DNA of 64,000 nt, taken from positions 224,001 through 288,000 of the forward strand of contig CAVWUU010000003.1 in NCBI GenBank assembly GCA_963758295.1, given 5' to 3'. Position 1 is the first letter of the stretch. Each line of letters opens with the position of its first letter. A program made the translations under genes and the position numbers. This DNA comes from Candidatus Eremiobacteria bacterium (lineage in GTDB: Bacteria > Vulcanimicrobiota > Vulcanimicrobiia > Vulcanimicrobiales > Vulcanimicrobiaceae). Below the pieces are notes generated by a model that was given only the letters and a program-made list of their open reading frames with translations, was not told the DNA's origin and did no database searches. This document shows, one piece after another, positions 3,157 to 8,048 of the stretch.

Positions 3157-3630
3157 GTGAGAAAAACTACCATTGCGTTCGCTGCCCTGCTTGCGGGAGC
3201 GTTGAGCGTAGGAATCGCGCCGGCGCAGGAAACCGCTCCGCCGCCGCCCGCTGGGACGACGACGCAACAAACGACAACCACCACAACCACAACGACGAAC
3301 AACGACACCGATACCACCGTCGATCCGGCGGACGTAGGTCCCAACAATCAGTACGGCGATCCGATCTGCGGCACATGGACAAACGGAACTTGGACGGATA
3401 ACGGCCATTGCCCGGGCTATGCCGTCGGCCCGCGCCGCTCGCACGTTGTCGGGACAATCACCGCCGTTAAGGGGCATCTGGTAACCGTTCAGCAGTCGAC
3501 CAAGACCGTTGTCATCAACGACACGCCGGCGTTAAACAATCAAACCACCGGCAAAGTGGCCGTGGGACGTCAGATCGATGCCTATGGATACTGGAAAGAC
3601 GGCAACTTTTACGCGACGCACATTCTCTAA
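3157..3630 (+). CDS. Secreted hypothetical protein with a Thr-rich linker
   Basis: AAGGAG RBS; signal peptide; poly-Thr tract; C-terminal beta-rich domain. Confidence 0.75.
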   Translation: MRKTTIAFAALLAGALSVGIAPAQETAPPPPAGTTTQQTTTTTTTTTNNDTDTTVDPADVGPNNQYGDPICGTWTNGTWTDNGHCPGYAVGPRRSHVVGTITAVKGHLVTVQQSTKTVVINDTPALNNQTTGKVAVGRQIDAYGYWKDGNFYATHIL

Positions 3631-4616
3631 ATACGACCGTCGCTAACGGGGGAGACCGGCTCGCTTCGCGGGCCGGTTTCTTTTTCGTTTAGGATTGCTC
3701 CGAGCAACTCCGCCACTTGGCTCGCTTCCGCCAGAAAGGCATCGTGTCCGTGATCGCTCGCAAGCTCGAAATACGGCGCGTTGAAACGGTGCGCCGTCTC
3801 CTCGATGTCTCGTGGACGGAAAAGCCAATCCGAGCTAATGCCTATGAAACTAAGCGGGGCGCATTCATCGTGCACGCGGTCGCGAACGTCGAAGGAATCC
3901 ATCGCGTGTGTAAGCGCTACGTAGGACGATGATTCCATTCGATCGCGGAATTTGTGCGCCTGATGGTTAAGATACCCTTCGACGTCGAATAAATCGGGGT
4001 TCGTGCGGTCGCGCCGACGGCCGTGCCGCGTTTCCAGCAGGTCTTCCGATTTGTACGTAAGCATTGCAACTTTGCGCGCGAGGCCGAGGCCTCGTTCGGG
4101 ATCGAGTTCGATGCATTCCCGTTGAATCGCGTTGAGGGCAACGGCCATCGGCGTACACCGGTCGTGGGCGCCGATAATGACAGCTCGTCCGACGTCGTGA
4201 GGAGCATCGAGTGCCCATTGAAACGCCTGCATGCCGCCGACGGATCCGCCGGTGACGACCGCGAGGCGCGATAGTCCAAGTGCAGTCAACGCCATCCGCT
4301 GCGCGCGCACGATATCGCGGATCGTGATGCGCGGAAATTTCGTCGCGCCTGACGGTTGCGTAGAGCCGTAACAACTGCCCAGCGCGTTGATCCCTACGAC
4401 GCACCAATGCGCGGGATCGAAAAATGCGCCCGGTCCGGCAATCCCGGGCCACCATTCCATCACGCGACTCGATCCGGTGAGAGCGTGCGGGATGAGGACG
4501 ACGTTCCCGCCGTCCTCCGCCGCATCTCCGTAGATCGTCACTCGCTGCTCGACTGCCGGAAGCACCGTCCCGTTCTCCAGCGGCAAGGCGCCGATACAAA
4601 CGGTCTTTTCGATCAC
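3627..4616 (-). CDS. metX: Homoserine O-acetyl(acyl)transferase
   Basis: HALTG, NALGSCYGS, GGSVGGMQA nucleophile elbow, SDWLF, HGHDAFL. Confidence 0.93.
   Translation of the reverse strand: MIEKTVCIGALPLENGTVLPAVEQRVTIYGDAAEDGGNVVLIPHALTGSSRVMEWWPGIAGPGAFFDPAHWCVVGINALGSCYGSTQPSGATKFPRITIRDIVRAQRMALTALGLSRLAVVTGGSVGGMQAFQWALDAPHDVGRAVIIGAHDRCTPMAVALNAIQRECIELDPERGLGLARKVAMLTYKSEDLLETRHGRRRDRTNPDLFDVEGYLNHQAHKFRDRMESSSYVALTHAMDSFDVRDRVHDECAPLSFIGISSDWLFRPRDIEETAHRFNAPYFELASDHGHDAFLAEASQVAELLGAILNEKETGPRSEPVSPVSDGRI
3652..3685 (+). terminator. Intrinsic terminator for the 3157-3630 gene, lying within the 3' coding tail of metX
   Basis: GAGACCGGCTCGC-TTC-GCGGGCCGGTTTC followed by TTTTT. Confidence 0.7.
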
Positions 4617-5914
4617 GCGCTTGCGTCGAGAGATCGAGCGAGATCGCCAATGATGTCGCGCTTGTCTTCGATTCCGACGGACAGCCGGATCGTCGATCCG
4701 GTTACGCCGCTTTGCAGCCGCTCTTCGTCGCTGAGCTGCTGATGCGTCGTACTCGCAGGATGAATCACCAGCGATTTTGCGTCACCGACGTTGGCAAGCA
4801 GCGAGAAAAGTTGCAGCCGGTCGATAAACGAACGAGCCTCGCGTTCTCCGCCATCGATTTCAAACGTCAGAATCGCTCCGGAACCTTCCGGTAAGTAGCG
4901 CTTCGCGCGAGCGCCGGCGGCATCGTTGCGAAGGCCGGGATAAGACACAGCCTTTACTTTCGGGTGAGCGGCGAGGAATTCTGCAACGGCGAGCGCGTTG
5001 CTGCTGTGGCGCTCCACGCGAAGCGCCAGCGTCTCGAGGCCCTGAAGCAGCAGCCACGCATTGAAGGGCGAAAGAGCCGCGCCGACGTCGCGCAGCAATT
5101 GGACCCGCGCTTTCAAGATGTAGGCGATGTTGCCGAAGACGCGTGCGTATTGCAATCCGTGATAAGACGGATCCGGGTCTACGAATTCCGCGAAGCGCTC
5201 CGCATTGGCCCAGTCGAAGGTTCCACCGTCTACGATGACGCCGCCGATGGCGGTGCCGTGGCCGCCGATGAATTTCGTCGCCGAATGTACGACGATGTCG
5301 GCGCCGTGTTCGATGGGCCGGAGCAGAACCGGCGTCGCCAGCGTGTTGTCGACAATGAAAGGCAACCCGTTTCGATGCGCGATATCCGCGAATAGTGCGA
5401 CGTCGAGTACGTCGATTTTGGGATTGCCGATAGTCTCGGCAAAGATGGCCTTGGTGTTCGGCCGGATCGCCGCTTCCACGGCGGAGGGGTCGTTGAAGTT
5501 CACGAGGCTCACCTCGATTCCGAACCGCTTGAGTGTATGCGCGAACGCGTTGTACGTTCCGCCGTACAGCGAGGAAGAACTGACAATGTGATCGCCCGCT
5601 TTTGCAAGCGTGAGAATCGAGTAGACGACAGCGGCCTGGCCGCTCGCGACGGCAAGAGCTGCGGCGCCTTTTTCCAGTGCCGCTAGGCGCTGTTCGAGAA
5701 CGTCGGTCGTGGGGTTGTTGATCCGCGTGTAGATATTTCCAAACTCTTCAAGGGCGAAGAGTTTTCCGGCGTGTTCGGTGGAGTCGAAGAGATACGACGT
5801 CGTCTGGTAGATGGGCACGGCGCGCGCTTTGGTGGCGGGATCGCCGTTGTGGCCGCCATGGATGGCGATAGTATTGAATTGCTGTTGGAGCGGAGATTCA
5901 AGGGTAGTGCTCAC
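4613..5914 (-). CDS. metY: O-acetylhomoserine aminocarboxypropyltransferase (sulfhydrylase)
   Basis: PIYQTTSY, YTRINNPT, HSATKFIGGHG (PLP lysine), ANVGDAKSL; GTG start at 5914 with AAGGA RBS. Confidence 0.95.
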   Translation of the reverse strand: MSTTLESPLQQQFNTIAIHGGHNGDPATKARAVPIYQTTSYLFDSTEHAGKLFALEEFGNIYTRINNPTTDVLEQRLAALEKGAAALAVASGQAAVVYSILTLAKAGDHIVSSSSLYGGTYNAFAHTLKRFGIEVSLVNFNDPSAVEAAIRPNTKAIFAETIGNPKIDVLDVALFADIAHRNGLPFIVDNTLATPVLLRPIEHGADIVVHSATKFIGGHGTAIGGVIVDGGTFDWANAERFAEFVDPDPSYHGLQYARVFGNIAYILKARVQLLRDVGAALSPFNAWLLLQGLETLALRVERHSSNALAVAEFLAAHPKVKAVSYPGLRNDAAGARAKRYLPEGSGAILTFEIDGGEREARSFIDRLQLFSLLANVGDAKSLVIHPASTTHQQLSDEERLQSGVTGSTIRLSVGIEDKRDIIGDLARSLDASA

Positions 5915-5921
5915 TGAGGTA

Positions 5922-7082
5922 TTATCCTTTCCCGGCAATGAGTGCGTCCGGTTCGGACGATGCCGGCGCGTCGGTGAGTGGTTTGAGGCAACGTTCGTCC
6001 CACACGCGATAGCGTGGGAGTTTCGCATGGGACCGCAACTCCGAAAAGAGCGGTAAGACTTCGAATGCCGGCGCAAGCGAGTGCCGCTGCGCGCGGTAGG
6101 TTAGGTCGTGGCGTTCGCCGATGGCGCGCAGCGCGCTCACGGCATCGCCGAGTACCGCGGAAGCAGTAGCGCGGCCGCCGGCGCCGACTCCGTGCAGAAG
6201 AAGCGAACCGGCATCGCGCGCCTCTACGTGCACGGCATTTTCCGCGCCGCGAGCCCGTGCGAAGGGATGCTCGCGTGGAACGAGCACTGGCGCAACTTCT
6301 GCTGCAACGCCCGTAGACGTGGCACGGGCCGCCGCAAGCAGGCGGATACGGAAACCAAGCCGGTCCGCAAACTGCACGTCGGCGCGCGTTATGCCGGTGA
6401 TTCCACGGTGTCGAATGCGCGGCGAGATGACCGCAAGTCCGAACGCGAGCTGAACTAGTACGGCAAGCTTATGCGTCGCATCCGTGCCGTCCACGTCGTA
6501 TGCCGGATCGGCCTCGGCGAAGCCGAGCTGCTGCGCTTTCGCGAGTGCTTCCTCGAATTCGGCCCCGCCTTCCATTGCGCTCAGAACGTACGTGCATGTG
6601 CCGTTCACGACGCCTGCGAGCGCGTGGGTGCGATCTCCGGCAAGGGCCTCGTCCAGCATCCGAACGATCGGAACGGCGCCGCAAACGGCCGCCTCATAAC
6701 GCATGGTAACGCGTCGCGCATCGGCGAGGGCCCGCAGGCGCGGTCCTTGCGTCGCAAGCAGATCTTTATTGGCCGTAACGACGTGGCGTCCGCGATCGAG
6801 CGCGCGTTCGATGAGCTCTGCGGCGTCGGTAGTGCCGCCGATGCACTCGATCAATAGATCGACGAGCGGATCGTCGATTAGCGCGTGCGGATCAGAAGTG
6901 AGAAGGGAATGCGGAATTGCGGCCGTGCGTGGTTTTGCGGTATCGCGAACGGCAATGCCGCGAAGCGTGAAACGAACGCCGCTCCGGCGTTCTAAGGCGT
7001 CGCTTTCGGTTAGCAAACGTTCGGCGACGGCCGTTCCGACCGTGCCGCACCCAAGCAAACCGATGCCTAAAGTCCATTGCAT
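5922..7082 (-). CDS. hom: Homoserine dehydrogenase (no evident C-terminal ACT domain)
   Basis: GLLGCGTVG, VVTANKD, YEAAVCGAVP, NGTCTY, GFAEADP..DVDG.D..HK, GAGG..TASAV. Confidence 0.95.
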   Translation of the reverse strand: MQWTLGIGLLGCGTVGTAVAERLLTESDALERRSGVRFTLRGIAVRDTAKPRTAAIPHSLLTSDPHALIDDPLVDLLIECIGGTTDAAELIERALDRGRHVVTANKDLLATQGPRLRALADARRVTMRYEAAVCGAVPIVRMLDEALAGDRTHALAGVVNGTCTYVLSAMEGGAEFEEALAKAQQLGFAEADPAYDVDGTDATHKLAVLVQLAFGLAVISPRIRHRGITGITRADVQFADRLGFRIRLLAAARATSTGVAAEVAPVLVPREHPFARARGAENAVHVEARDAGSLLLHGVGAGGRATASAVLGDAVSALRAIGERHDLTYRAQRHSLAPAFEVLPLFSELRSHAKLPRYRVWDERCLKPLTDAPASSEPDALIAGKG

Positions 7083-7114
7083 TCCGTGCTTCCTTTTGAG
7101 ACGGGAAAGCGAGG

Positions 7115-7150
7115 AAACAAAAATGCCCCGCCGGTTCTCCGGCGGGGCAT
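7115..7150 (-). terminator. Attenuator terminator upstream of hom
   Basis: Perfect 12-bp stem ATGCCCCGCCGG-AGAA-CCGGCGGGGCAT followed by TTTTGTTT on the minus strand, about 33 nt before the hom ATG. Confidence 0.9.
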
Positions 7151-7186
7151 CTGTGAAACTCGATTGGTGCTCTTACATGAAGCCTT

Positions 7187-7267
7187 TCATCGGTTCACGA
7201 CGTTGCCCGCCGGGTGCATTTGCATCCAACACATGGGGCGCATCGTGGCGACGAAGCTTGCTAACAT
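7187..7267 (-). CDS. Met-rich leader peptide (26 aa: MLASFVATMRPMCWMQMHPAGNVVNR)
   Basis: Manual translation; 4 internal Met plus 1 Cys in codons 9-17; sits between the promoter and the terminator of the met operon. Confidence 0.8.
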   Translation of the reverse strand: MLASFVATMRPMCWMQMHPAGNVVNR

Positions 7268-7274
7268 TTCGGAA

Positions 7275-7303
7275 AGGCTAACACACACCCTCGGCGCCGT
7301 CAA
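7275..7303 (-). promoter_or_regulatory. Sigma70-type promoter of the met operon, giving a leaderless transcript
   Basis: TTGACG-N17-TAGCCT with TG extended -10; leader ATG is 7 nt downstream of the -10. Confidence 0.75.
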
Positions 7304-7338
7304 GTGACGGTGATGGAACTCGTGGGTACCATGCCGTT

Positions 7339-7569
7339 ATGGCACAAGAAAAGTCGGGCGATCATAAGCATCACGAACACGAGCCTACGGCAGCCGAAGC
7401 ATCGCAACGCGCCGCGCAAGAACGGGAGCAGCAGCGAATTCGCGAGTTAAACGATCTCTCTCGTCAAAACCGCGGCGTTGAAAGGGGAGCGACGGACCTT
7501 GCTCCGCACGAAAACATGACGCCGGCGGAAGAACATCGCGCCGGACCCTTACCCGATCAAAAGCGCTAA
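7339..7569 (+). CDS. Small hydrophilic hypothetical protein
   Basis: 76-aa charged ORF; TACCAT -10-like hexamer 6 nt before the ATG. Confidence 0.6.
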   Translation: MAQEKSGDHKHHEHEPTAAEASQRAAQEREQQRIRELNDLSRQNRGVERGATDLAPHENMTPAEEHRAGPLPDQKR

Positions 7570-8048
7570 CAGCGTCGCGCGCGCATGTCGGCGTGCAATT
7601 GCCGGAGGCGATCGGAAACATAGCCGCGTTCGTCTTGCGTCAGCGTTGAATTTTTCAGTTCGGCGCTTTCGTACGCGATCATCGACTTGTCTGCATCGCA
7701 CGATCCATAGTAGATGTGAGGGACGGCAAATGCGCCCTGTGCGAGCGGCGCCGCAGAAAAGGGTGCGCCGGCGCTGGAATTCGGAATCAGCGGAGGCGGC
7801 GTCGGTGCGCCGGGCGGTTTAGATATGAGCGGCCGCGTATTGATCCGGTACTGCAGCTCCGAAATCTGCTCTTGAATCGCTAACCGCTGTTGCTGCGAAA
7901 CGCCCGGTTGCGTCAACTGGTACTGAAGTTGCGCGATCGTCTGCCGGTCGACGGTTGACTGCGGCAGCGTTTGGGCGGTTGCTATGGCCGGCGTCAGAGC
8001 TGCCGATAGCATGACTATTCGGGCAAGGTGCGCGGCATCGAGAATCAT
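7566..8048 (-). CDS. Secreted hypothetical protein
   Basis: Signal peptide (..AIATA/Q); Gln/Pro-rich; TATACT hexamer just upstream of the ATG. Confidence 0.65.
   Translation of the reverse strand: MILDAAHLARIVMLSAALTPAIATAQTLPQSTVDRQTIAQLQYQLTQPGVSQQQRLAIQEQISELQYRINTRPLISKPPGAPTPPPLIPNSSAGAPFSAAPLAQGAFAVPHIYYGSCDADKSMIAYESAELKNSTLTQDERGYVSDRLRQLHADMRARRC

What the first reader, a model, noticed from the sequence alone, without database searches (positions are those of the whole stretch)
7083..7303. Met-codon leader-peptide attenuator controlling hom-metY-metX, in place of a SAM riboswitch
Seen on the minus strand, in order: (1) a promoter TTGACG-N17-TAGCCT at 7303-7275; (2) an ATG 7 nt later with no SD, so a leaderless start; (3) a 26-aa ORF MLASFVATMRPMCWMQMHPAGNVVNR (7267-7187) with Met at codons 9, 12, 15, 17 and Cys at 13; (4) a perfect 12-bp terminator with a U tract (7150-7115), just before the hom RBS. 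The alternative pairings of a classical attenuator are all present. Segment 1 (CACGATG-C-GCCC, over Met9) pairs with segment 2 (GGGC-AA-CGTCGTG). Segment 2 also contains CCGGCGGGCA (7213-7204), a near-copy of the terminator 3' arm CCGGCGGGGCA, so it can capture the 5' arm TGCCCCGCCGG as an antiterminator. Established: trp/his/thr/leu/ilv/phe operons use this 1:2, 2:3, 3:4 logic, whereas met genes are normally controlled by SAM riboswitches, Met T-boxes or MetJ/MetR. I see none of those motifs here. Inference: ribosome stalling on elongator Met (and possibly Cys) codons frees segment 2 and allows read-through. I do not know of a well-characterised Met-codon attenuator of this kind.
Basis: partly seen in the sequence, partly recalled or inferred. 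Interest (0 to 1): 0.9.

Follow-up and report, generated by a model that had tools for sequence, protein, structure and literature searches.

The report
Methionine/cysteine leader-peptide attenuator before hom-metY-metX
A tiny reading frame packed with methionine and cysteine codons, followed by a transcription stop signal, most likely lets a stalling ribosome switch on this bacterium's methionine-synthesis genes when sulfur amino acids run short, a well-known type of switch used here for amino acids for which it is hardly documented.

Summary
No riboswitch or T-box matches.

I found 62 distinct related loci in relatives named Eremiobacterota/Baltobacteraceae. In 60 the leader ATG lies exactly 7 nt after the -10 box. 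The 56 distinct peptides hold 14.3% Met and 8.9% Cys. ATG triplets are in frame 116:14:13. The terminator covaries. Segment 2 pairs best with its own terminator arm.

The module precedes only sulfur genes: hom, MetB/Z-like, an SsuA-like binding protein and PAPS reductase, the last with a Cys-rich leader. Other hom paralogs carry Thr/Ile-rich leaders, and this genome has a Trp leader of the same design.

There is no experimental evidence. Three literature searches found only a predicted 'metL' peptide in Streptomyces lividans. Earlier unchecked notes of this scan report similar leaders before metY in other phyla. An invariant post-terminator block that sequesters the SD remains unexplained.

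Verdict: real, a new variant of a known kind.

The parts
7298..7303 (-). -35-like hexamer TTGACG
   Evidence: TTG[AC]NN followed by a 17-nt (51 loci) or 18-nt (11 loci) spacer is conserved in 62 related loci.
7275..7280 (-). -10-like hexamer TAGCCT
   Evidence: The -10 box ends exactly 7 nt before the leader ATG in 60 of 62 related loci. Not listed by the consensus scan (3 of 6 matches to TATAAT).
7187..7267 (-). Leaderless 26-codon leader ORF MLASFVATMRPMCWMQMHPAGNVVNR plus stop codon
   Evidence: Homologous ORFs occur in relatives. With the frame set only by the promoter, ATG triplets are in frame 116:14:13.
7217..7243 (-). Regulatory codon cluster: Met9, Met12, Cys13, Met15, Met17
   Evidence: Across 56 distinct leader peptides the fraction of Met/Cys per codon position peaks at codons 8-17 (0.77 at codon 8, 0.66 at codon 12).
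7220..7262 (-).
   Evidence: MFE fold. The 1:2 duplex is -38.4 kcal/mol, z = -3.4, with 0 of 200 shuffles as good.
7195..7213 (-). Segment 2: CCGGCGGGCAACGTCGTGA, which pairs either with segment 1 or with the terminator 5' arm (antiterminator)
   Evidence: RNAduplex with the 5' arm: -21.2 kcal/mol, z = -3.4, 1 of 200 shuffles as good. The partner lies at ORF nt ~50-75 in 34 of 36 loci. This locus's own arm ranks 1 of 17.
7121..7152 (-). Intrinsic terminator hairpin (segments 3 and 4): 14 pairs, loop AGAA, followed by the T run 7122-7114
   Evidence: On 30 sequences, 10 of 14 pairs change on both sides and 0 of 500 shuffles reach the covariation score.
7097..7115 (-). Conserved post-terminator block TCCTCGCTTTCCCGTCTCA (anti-SD GCUUUC plus conserved loop)
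   Evidence: Occurs once in this genome. Matches with up to 2 mismatches in 143 of 401 phylum genomes, an upper bound. Consensus hairpin GCUUUC/GGAGGC.
7089..7093 (-). Shine-Dalgarno GGAAG of hom, predicted to be mostly paired
   Evidence: SD unpaired probability is 0.19 in this sequence and averages 0.06 over 20 loci.
5922..7082 (-). hom, homoserine dehydrogenase (386 aa)
   Evidence: Pfam PF00742 and PF03447. NCBIfam NF004976 scores 388.8 bits against a cut-off of 205.
4613..6076 (-). metY, O-acetylhomoserine sulfhydrylase. The listed ORF is 487 aa from a TTG; the family match begins at about residue 65, so the true start is probably later.
   Evidence: Pfam PF01053. NCBIfam TIGR01326 scores 672 bits against a cut-off of 495.
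3627..4616 (-). metX-like alpha/beta hydrolase (329 aa), overlapping the end of metY by 4 nt
   Evidence: Pfam PF00561. The best NCBIfam models are MetX, but the score is under their cut-offs (264.7 against 500; 259.4 against 331).

Best explanation
This is a ribosome-mediated transcription attenuator that senses sulfur amino acids.

Transcription starts at, or within a base of, the A of the leader ATG, so the mRNA is leaderless. A ribosome translates the 26-codon leader close behind RNA polymerase.

When Met-tRNA or Cys-tRNA is scarce, the ribosome stalls in the cluster at codons 9-17. It then holds segment 1. Segment 2 (7213-7195) stays free and pairs with the terminator's 5' arm as that arm emerges. 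The terminator cannot form, and hom-metY-metX is transcribed.

When both charged tRNAs are plentiful, the ribosome runs on to the stop codon. It covers the distal half of segment 2 and is then released. Segment 1 re-pairs with segment 2, the 12-14 bp terminator forms, and transcription ends before hom.

Shown here: the sequence anatomy; conservation of the codons, the frame and the promoter spacing; covariation of the terminator; partner-specific complementarity of the antiterminator; and the match between leader composition and the pathway of the downstream gene.

Inferred: the transcription start, translation of the leader, stalling, and the response to Met/Cys.

A second layer is likely. 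The SD of hom is paired in a small conserved hairpin just after the terminator. What opens that hairpin is unknown.
For: (a) Anatomy confirmed.

(b) Conservation. 62 distinct related loci have a promoter-defined leaderless ORF, and the ATG is exactly 7 nt after the -10 box in 60 of them. There are 56 distinct peptides; Met makes up 14.3% and Cys 8.9% of 1354 internal residues, against 1.6% and 1.2% in this genome's long ORFs. All 56 have at least 3 Met+Cys, peaking at codons 8-17.

(c) Reading frame. With the frame set only by the promoter, ATG triplets between the start and the terminator are 116 in frame against 14 and 13 out of frame, in 34 distinct loci.

(d) Segment 2 is conserved as nucleotides. 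GCGGCGGGG-like motifs are read in different frames in different loci.

(e) Terminator: 10 of 14 pairs have compensatory changes, 89% of cells are paired, and 0 of 500 shuffles reach the score.

(f) Antiterminator. The partner of the 5' arm lies at ORF nt ~50-75 in 34 of 36 loci. A leader's own segment 2 and arm average -19.1 kcal/mol against -16.3 for mismatched pairs, with 0 of 20,000 permutations as good. Two of the 6 alignable pairs show compensatory changes.

(g) Ribosome-mask folding. The 5' arm is captured upstream with mean probability 0.79 when the A-site is on Met/Cys codons and 0.52 at the stop codon; the first value is higher in 35 of 35 loci.

(h) Composition tracks the pathway. 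The same module precedes hom (52 sites), an NMT1/SsuA-like binding protein (13), a MetB/Z-like enzyme (3) and PAPS reductase (1, with the Cys-rich leader MSSLLGTMCRCCRNCS...). The longer hom paralogs in L021, L022 and L027 have Thr/Ile-rich leaders. This genome also has a WWW leader of identical layout before a DAHP-synthase-like gene.

(i) Leaderless starts look common here: ATG lies 6-10 nt after 20 of 73 strict promoter-like sites, against 2 at offsets 2-5 and 2 at offsets 11-13.

(j) No known RNA family matches.
Against: There is no experimental datum of any kind: no transcript ends, no ribosome footprints, no reporter.

In the equilibrium ensemble of truncated transcripts with no ribosome, the 5' arm is still captured upstream in 31 of 36 loci (below 0.5 in only 5). 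The model therefore needs the 1:2 hairpin to act kinetically rather than thermodynamically.

For this window's own sequence the mask scan discriminates weakly (about 0.8 at the Met/Cys codons against about 0.6 at the stop).

Single-sequence antiterminator z-scores are modest (median -2.4; 2 of 36 loci place the best partner elsewhere).

The 36 loci were first picked with a score that rewarded Met/Cys. This was corrected by the promoter-only recount and by the 30 leaders, which were defined by the promoter alone.

Many loci are close kin (13 near-identical in one genus), so the counts overstate independence.

Methionine starvation should also lower initiator tRNA charging, and so leader initiation. 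How the device copes with that is unknown (my own reasoning, not tested).
Confidence: 0.77

Rival explanations
1. An RNA-only sensor, meaning an undescribed riboswitch (for SAM or another sulfur metabolite). Ligand binding would choose between the antiterminator and the terminator, and the short ORF would be incidental.
For: The leader is highly structured (z = -4.2). Met genes are usually under SAM riboswitches (established knowledge). The invariant post-terminator block with a conserved loop looks like a sequence-specific RNA element and survives without the leader (L171, L194).
Against: The in-frame ATG bias is 116:14:13. The -10-to-ATG spacing is fixed at 7 nt in 60 of 62 loci. ORF length and stop position are conserved while the leader nucleotide sequence outside segment 2 diverges freely (mean column identity 52%). 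Leader composition changes with the downstream pathway (Cys-rich, Thr/Ile-rich, Trp). No Rfam match.
Confidence: 0.07
2. A trans-acting factor, either an RNA-binding protein (of the TRAP or PyrR type) or an sRNA, binds the leader or the conserved block and sets termination or translation. The uORF would play at most an auxiliary role.
For: The 19-nt block and its loop are nearly invariant across genera whose hom proteins are about 50% identical. That is more than an SD-sequestering helix needs. The block occurs only before sulfur-metabolism genes.
Against: No candidate factor was identified, and no repeated binding motif was seen in the leader. All the evidence that the ORF is read as codons stays unexplained under this view. 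It could still hold as an added layer acting on the block.
Confidence: 0.08
3. The nascent Met/Cys-rich peptide is an arrest peptide that senses a free metabolite (Met, SAM or a metal) in the exit tunnel, as TnaC does for Trp. Alternatively, the ORF encodes a functional micro-protein whose own terminator merely precedes hom.
For: CMC/CC motifs could bind metals. The peptide family is conserved. Ligand-sensing arrest peptides exist (TnaC: PMC8429421, abstract seen in the listing).
Against: Stalling at high Met or SAM would induce a biosynthetic operon, which is the wrong sign. Outside the Met/Cys positions the peptides are poorly conserved (one search list). The C-terminal part is conserved as RNA, in different frames. 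The antiterminator is specific to its own terminator arm, which a plain terminator of a micro-protein gene would not need.
Confidence: 0.04

Closest known systems
Classical leader-peptide transcription attenuators of amino-acid operons (trpL, hisL, thrL, leuL, ilvL, pheL of Proteobacteria; named from established knowledge)
   Same: A short ORF enriched in codons for the pathway's product; mutually exclusive 1:2, 2:3 and 3:4 helices; an intrinsic terminator before the first structural gene.
   Different: The regulatory codons are Met and Cys, interspersed rather than in a run. The leader is leaderless (no SD; ATG 7 nt after the -10 box). Segment 2 lies inside the ORF just before the stop codon. 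A conserved SD-sequestering hairpin follows the terminator. The lineage is Eremiobacterota-like.
Leaderless polycysteine short ORFs of mycobacteria, the 'Cys ribulon' (Canestrari et al., bioRxiv 10.1101/834739; passages read)
   Same: A leaderless sensory short ORF; Cys codons as sensors; several sulfur-metabolism loci each with its own sORF, giving a ribosome-directed regulon; an SD-sequestering structure downstream.
   Different: [quoted passage not shown] Here Met and Cys codons are mixed and there is a canonical intrinsic terminator with an antiterminator.
Predicted 'metL' leader peptide of Streptomyces lividans TK24 upstream of metNIQ (PMC8079986; passages read)
   Same: Leaderless; ends in CMCRRMC, a Met/Cys-alternating motif much like MFCMCC or MCPMCC here; precedes a methionine-related operon.
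   Different: It is an annotation-level prediction. The authors state that termination is unclear and a typical Rho-independent terminator is missing. It precedes a transporter rather than biosynthesis, and no antiterminator is described.
uORFC-8-2 motif upstream of cysS in Rhodobacterales (PMC8632094; passages read)
   Same: A uORF with conserved Cys codons inside a stem, followed by a U run consistent with an intrinsic terminator; proposed ribosome-mediated attenuation.
   Different: Two tandem Cys codons only, no Met codons; it controls a tRNA synthetase; it is not described as leaderless.

Membership tests
Ribosome-mediated (leader-peptide) transcription attenuator | Short ORF in the leader enriched in codons for the end product of the controlled pathway | tested here: met
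   4 Met and 1 Cys in 25 internal codons. All 56 distinct homologous peptides have at least 3 Met+Cys. ATG triplets are in frame 116:14:13.
Ribosome-mediated (leader-peptide) transcription attenuator | Intrinsic terminator between the leader ORF and the first structural gene | tested here: met
   14-bp GC-rich stem plus T run at 7152-7114. 10 of 14 pairs covary across 30 sequences.
Ribosome-mediated (leader-peptide) transcription attenuator | Antiterminator helix (2:3) that excludes the terminator | tested here: met
   -21.2 kcal/mol, z = -3.4 in this window. The partner is in the same place in 34 of 36 loci. A leader's own segment 2 and arm beat mismatched pairs, with 0 of 20,000 permutations as good. 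2 of 6 alignable pairs are compensatory.
Ribosome-mediated (leader-peptide) transcription attenuator | Anti-antiterminator helix (1:2) overlapping the regulatory codons | tested here: inconclusive
   Present in this window's MFE and in the full-length MFE of most of 18 representatives. The duplex z-score is negative in 18 of 18 and at or below -2 in 10 of 18. It is not dominant in truncated-transcript ensembles in 31 of 36 loci.
Ribosome-mediated (leader-peptide) transcription attenuator | The leader is translated, and read-through rises when the cognate charged tRNA falls | not testable with these tools
   No RNA run holding this stretch is listed. This needs Ribo-seq, Term-seq or reporters.
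SAM riboswitches (SAM-I, SAM-IV, SAM-II and relatives) | Match to the family covariance model | tested here: not met
   No SAM family at E<=10 in window 6500-8000, nor at E<=1 in 10 related loci. RF00162 and RF00634 not found genome-wide, with their controls ringing. The RF00521 search is uninformative because its controls were silent.
T-box leader | Match to RF00230 (specifier loop and T-box sequence) | tested here: not met
   Not found genome-wide in an 82%-complete genome, with controls ringing in 5 genomes.
Mycobacterial leaderless polycysteine sORF attenuators | Leaderless sORF: transcription and translation start coincide | tested here: inconclusive
   Inferred only. The ATG is 7 nt after the -10 box in 60 of 62 loci, and ATG is enriched genome-wide at offsets 6-10. 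No 5'-end data.
Mycobacterial leaderless polycysteine sORF attenuators | Tract of consecutive Cys codons, acting by RBS sequestration without a terminator | tested here: not met
   This window has one Cys codon among four Met codons and a canonical terminator. Relatives have up to CCC (L011, L203). An SD hairpin is predicted as well.

The most novel reading that the evidence does not exclude
The module is a two-input device. Besides the Met/Cys-codon attenuator, the invariant post-terminator block (GCUUUCCCRUCUCA-N3-4-GGAGGC) would be a new cis-regulatory RNA specific to sulfur metabolism. It could be a very small translational riboswitch, or the docking site of an unknown protein or sRNA, that gates the SD of hom, ssuA-like, metB/Z-like and cysH genes across this phylum. 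It works on its own where the leader has been lost (L171, L194). Together the leaders would form a 'sulfur ribulon' in an uncultured phylum.
Probability: 0.2. Interest if true: 0.75.

Novelty: new variant of a known kind. Interest (0 to 1): 0.62.

Why it matters
Leader-peptide attenuation is the textbook example of a ribosome acting as a metabolite sensor. Methionine is missing from the classical list, and met genes are thought of as the domain of SAM riboswitches, T-boxes and MetJ/MetR-type proteins.

A conserved Met/Cys-codon attenuator would show three things. The elongator Met codon can serve as a sensor even though Met is also needed for initiation. One design can be re-tuned by codon content alone: Met/Cys, Cys, Thr/Ile and Trp versions occur in one lineage. 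And an uncultured phylum with no SAM-I, SAM-IV or T-box detected in this genome coordinates homoserine, homocysteine, sulfonate-uptake-like and sulfate-reduction genes through the ribosome.

It also gives annotators a concrete rule for finding such leaders: TTGAC-N17/18-TAnnnT-N7-ATG, then a Met/Cys cluster at codons 8-17, then a terminator.

Tried and rejected
(1) Scanning the species-genome collection with a 16-nt pattern from the block. The pattern was too short for 596 billion bases.

(2) 'Second copies' of the block with 2 mismatches. The ones I fetched (L179-L188, L192, L197) lie inside coding sequence and are chance matches. So are L149, L150, L153, L154, L159, L166, L168 and L177 and L230, L232 and L234-L236. 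The figure of 143 of 401 genomes is therefore an upper bound.

(3) A look-alike of the block in this genome at C2:46087 lies inside a long open frame and was dropped.

(4) Reading the block as a coding sequence. The variable positions suggested codon phase, but that frame has a TAA in L193 and L196, so I rejected it.

(5) The idea that the freed terminator 3' arm pairs with CCUCGC and opens the SD. SD accessibility rises in 15 of 20 loci (mean 0.06 to 0.24) but not in this window (0.19 to 0.22). It stays speculative.

(6) Column-based covariation for the whole antiterminator. MAFFT cannot keep the distal part of segment 2 in register across leader types. Only 6 core pairs were counted, and an alignment-free test was used instead.

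(7) Sequencing runs. No RNA holder is listed, and the two holders shown carry only 0.04-0.06 of the sampled words.

(8) Genome-wide scans for further leaderless leader-plus-terminator pairs found only the Met/Cys and Trp leaders in this 82%-complete genome.

(9) Earlier-findings look-up by place found nothing.

(10) Two coordinate slips gave translation errors. The first was corrected. For the second, the offending reference was dropped, so the MetB/Z-like label for L214, L215 and L220 rests on my reading of their N-terminal sequences, not on a family search.
Full report
OBSERVATION

On the minus strand the window reads as follows. TTGACG lies at 7303-7298, then a 17-nt spacer, TAGCCT at 7280-7275, seven bases, and ATG at 7267. 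There is no Shine-Dalgarno sequence.

The ORF is MLASFVATMRPMCWMQMHPAGNVVNR, with its stop at 7189-7187. A 12-bp perfect hairpin, 14 bp by the scan (7152-7121), is followed by TTTTTGTTT. The hom start is at 7082, behind GGAAG.

The leader folds far better than shuffles: -71.2 kcal/mol, z = -4.2, 0 of 200 shuffles as good.

The three downstream genes are:
- homoserine dehydrogenase;
- an O-acetylhomoserine sulfhydrylase (TIGR01326, above its cut-off);
- a MetX-like hydrolase, whose best models are MetX but whose score is under their cut-offs.

The one weak point is that the simple consensus scan does not list the promoter, because TAGCCT matches TATAAT at only three positions.

KNOWN RNA FAMILIES EXCLUDED

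Rfam at E<=10 over 6500-8000 returns only terminator-driven noise. Ten related loci at E<=1 return one spurious miRNA hit. SAM-I, SAM-IV and T-box are not found anywhere in this 82%-complete genome, while the positive controls ring. The SAM-II search is uninformative because its controls were silent.

CONSERVATION

A search of 41 related genomes with the hom protein gave 28 loci. Their upstream regions show the same architecture in L002, L003, L008, L009, L011, L016 and L024. Examples of the leaders are MFAAHAMMCPMCCMQMYAARAVMER, MSILTSRMFCMCCLNQAAGRLLRT and MSMSMTSMFCMCCCMRAAGLLRT. A class-level relative (L018) has a Met/Cys leader too.

A 19-nt block just after the terminator is nearly invariant. 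I used it as a probe.
- It occurs once in this genome.
- It matches with up to 2 mismatches in 143 of 401 genomes of the phylum, and in 132 of 296 other genomes of the same family. This is an upper bound, because many 2-mismatch hits are coding chance matches.
- Named records holding it are Baltobacteraceae, Eremiobacterota or Vulcanimicrobiota MAGs.

After fetching 88 sites I had 72 distinct block sites. Of these, 62 carry a promoter-defined leaderless ORF.

IS THE ORF READ AS CODONS?

- In 60 of 62 loci the ATG lies exactly 7 nt after the -10 hexamer. The -35/-10 spacer is 17 nt in 51 loci and 18 nt in 11.
- With the frame fixed only by that promoter-proximal ATG, ATG triplets between the start and the terminator fall 116 in frame against 14 and 13 out of frame, in 34 distinct loci. 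The promoter-defined start equals the ORF start in 34 of 34. This recount was needed because my first ORF picker rewarded Met/Cys content.
- The 56 distinct peptides have 193 Met (14.3%) and 121 Cys (8.9%) among 1354 internal residues. This genome's long ORFs have 1.6% and 1.2%. All 56 peptides have at least three Met+Cys, and the cluster sits at codons 8-17.
- The 3' part of the ORF is conserved as nucleotides (GCGGCGGGG-like) and is read in different frames in different loci, as expected for an RNA pairing element.
- Leaderless initiation looks common here. ATG lies 6-10 nt after 20 of 73 strict promoter-like sites, against 2 at offsets 2-5 and 2 at 11-13. Eleven of those 20 open ORFs of at least 100 aa.

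STRUCTURES

Terminator. On 30 sequences (alignment A1), 14 pairs are 89% paired. Ten pairs change on both sides, and 0 of 500 shuffles reach the covariation score.

Antiterminator.
- RNAduplex places the partner of the 5' arm at ORF nt ~50-75 in 34 of 36 loci. It ends 0-21 nt before the end of the stop codon. The median z-score is -2.4; in this window the values are -21.2 kcal/mol and z = -3.4.
- MAFFT cannot hold the distal part in register, so only six core pairs could be counted. They are 90% paired, with two compensatory pairs: C-G to U-A in L193, and G-C to A-U in the binding-protein type.
- An alignment-free test on 17 representatives shows that each segment 2 pairs better with its own arm than with the arms of the other representatives: -19.1 against -16.3 kcal/mol, 0 of 20,000 permutations as good. 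This window's arm ranks first of 17.

Ribosome-mask folding of transcripts cut before the 3' arm. The 5' arm is captured upstream with mean probability 0.79 while the A-site is on Met/Cys codons and 0.52 at the stop codon. The first value is higher in 35 of 35 loci.

Against the full three-helix model. Without any ribosome the equilibrium ensemble still captures the arm in 31 of 36 loci. The 1:2 hairpin appears in most full-length MFE folds, and its duplex z-score is negative in 18 of 18 representatives and at or below -2 in 10 of 18. It would therefore have to act kinetically, forming before segment 3 is made. In this window 1:2 is strong: -38.4 kcal/mol, z = -3.4.

COMPOSITION TRACKS THE PATHWAY

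The module precedes:

| Downstream gene | Distinct sites | Note |
|---|---|---|
| hom | 52 | counting L212, whose start my script mis-set |
| NMT1/SsuA-like binding protein | 13 | leader MSNLHIMCHMC... |
| MetB/Z-like PLP enzyme | 3 | label from reading the N-termini only |
| PAPS reductase | 1 | leader is Cys-rich, MSSLLGTMCRCCRNCS... |

Longer, stand-alone hom paralogs in L021, L022 and L027 carry Thr/Ile-rich leaders of the same design (MTAHAAIMGISTITSS..., MSARCITSTIMCATSIT...).

This genome has a second leaderless leader, MTTLRTFAWWWHLS..., with a terminator, before a DAHP-synthase-like gene.

These are natural codon swaps on one chassis. They are the strongest argument that the codons are the sensor.

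MECHANISM

Best-supported reading (confidence 0.77). When Met- or Cys-tRNA is short, the ribosome stalls at codons 9-17. This frees segment 2 (7213-7195) to trap the terminator's 5' arm, and hom-metY-metX is transcribed. When both are plentiful, the ribosome reaches the stop codon, segment 2 is covered and then re-pairs with segment 1, and the terminator fires.

The anatomy and the comparative signals are shown. The transcript start, translation, stalling and the physiological response are inferred.

An open point is how a leaderless Met sensor copes with reduced initiator-tRNA charging during Met starvation. The Cys codons may be part of the answer. This is my speculation.

THE UNEXPLAINED BLOCK

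RNAalifold on 35 sequences predicts a 6-bp hairpin in which GCUUUC pairs with the SD GGAGGC across an 11-nt loop. There is one compensatory pair. The SD is predicted to be mostly paired, with mean unpaired probability 0.06.

The block persists where the leader and terminator are absent: in L171 it lies directly after a promoter, and in L194 it is inside an operon.

Its loop is as conserved as its stem, which simple SD sequestration does not explain. I tested whether the antiterminated state opens the SD. It does in 15 of 20 loci, but not in this window. I rejected a coding reading of the block.

LITERATURE

Three full-text searches found no characterised Met-codon attenuator.
- Seliverstov et al. 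2005 (PMC1262725; passages read) found none for methionine in Actinobacteria. They predicted Cys leaders without terminators.
- Droste et al. 2021 (PMC8079986; passages read) annotate a leaderless 'metL' ending CMCRRMCAF before metNIQ in S. lividans, and state that a typical terminator is missing.
- Canestrari et al. (bioRxiv 10.1101/834739; passages read) showed experimentally that leaderless poly-Cys sORFs attenuate translation in mycobacteria.
- Brewer et al. 2021 (PMC8632094; passages read) describe a Cys uORF with a terminator before cysS.
- Naville & Gautheret 2010 (PMC2965389; passages read) mention no Met leader.

I opened no supplementary files, so tables there may list further predicted leaders. 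Subscription journals are not covered by the library.

EARLIER NOTES OF THIS SCAN

Six unchecked notes report Met/Cys or Cys leaders before metY in Bacteroidota, Flavobacterium, Clostridia and Actinobacteria. They agree with this reading and suggest the class is widespread. I did not test them.

VERDICT

It is a new variant of a known kind: a leader-peptide attenuator with Met/Cys specificity and a leaderless start. It is interesting but not categorically new.

Noticed in passing
G000 contig C4, about 718570-718430, minus strand (outside the window): A second leaderless leader, MTTLRTFAWWWHLSAAFAGEARAFVMT, with the same TTGACG-N17-TAAGCT-N7-ATG layout and a terminator. It sits upstream of a DAHP-synthase-like gene and is probably a Trp attenuator.
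   Followed up: partly
L021, L022, L027 (hom paralogs in related genomes G007, G009, G018): Longer, stand-alone hom paralogs (open frames of about 406-456 aa) are preceded by leaderless Thr/Ile-rich leaders (in L027 also Met-rich) plus terminators. Examples: MTAHAAIMGISTITSS..., MSARCITSTIMCATSIT..., MTLSMSMAITMSMITTC...
   Followed up: partly
L013-L017 and L028 (family f2 hom loci), about 60-100 nt upstream of hom: The promoter-like site is followed at once by a short GC hairpin and a U run (GCCGCCCCGGGCGGC then TTCGTTTTCC). No leader ORF was seen. It may be a different kind of attenuator.
   Followed up: no
window 7339-7569 (+): A divergently oriented 76-aa ORF rich in His, Glu and Gln (MAQEKSGDHKHHEHEPTAAEASQ...). 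It starts about 70 nt from the leader ATG, so the two would share the promoter region. No family search was run on it.
   Followed up: no
L171 (G376) and L194 (G294): The conserved post-terminator block and SD are kept before hom although the leader ORF and terminator are absent. In L171 the block lies directly after a promoter. In L194 it lies in the gap after a Cys/Met PLP-enzyme gene.
   Followed up: partly
whole genome G000: ATG is enriched 6-10 nt after strict promoter-like sites (20 of 73, against 2 at offsets 2-5 and 2 at offsets 11-13), and 11 of those 20 open ORFs of at least 100 aa. Leaderless mRNAs are probably common in this organism.
   Followed up: partly
window 3627-4616 (-): The MetX-like protein is short (329 aa) and scores below the curated cut-offs of all NCBIfam MetX models (264.7 against 500; 259.4 against 331). 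Its acyl donor and exact activity are uncertain.
   Followed up: no
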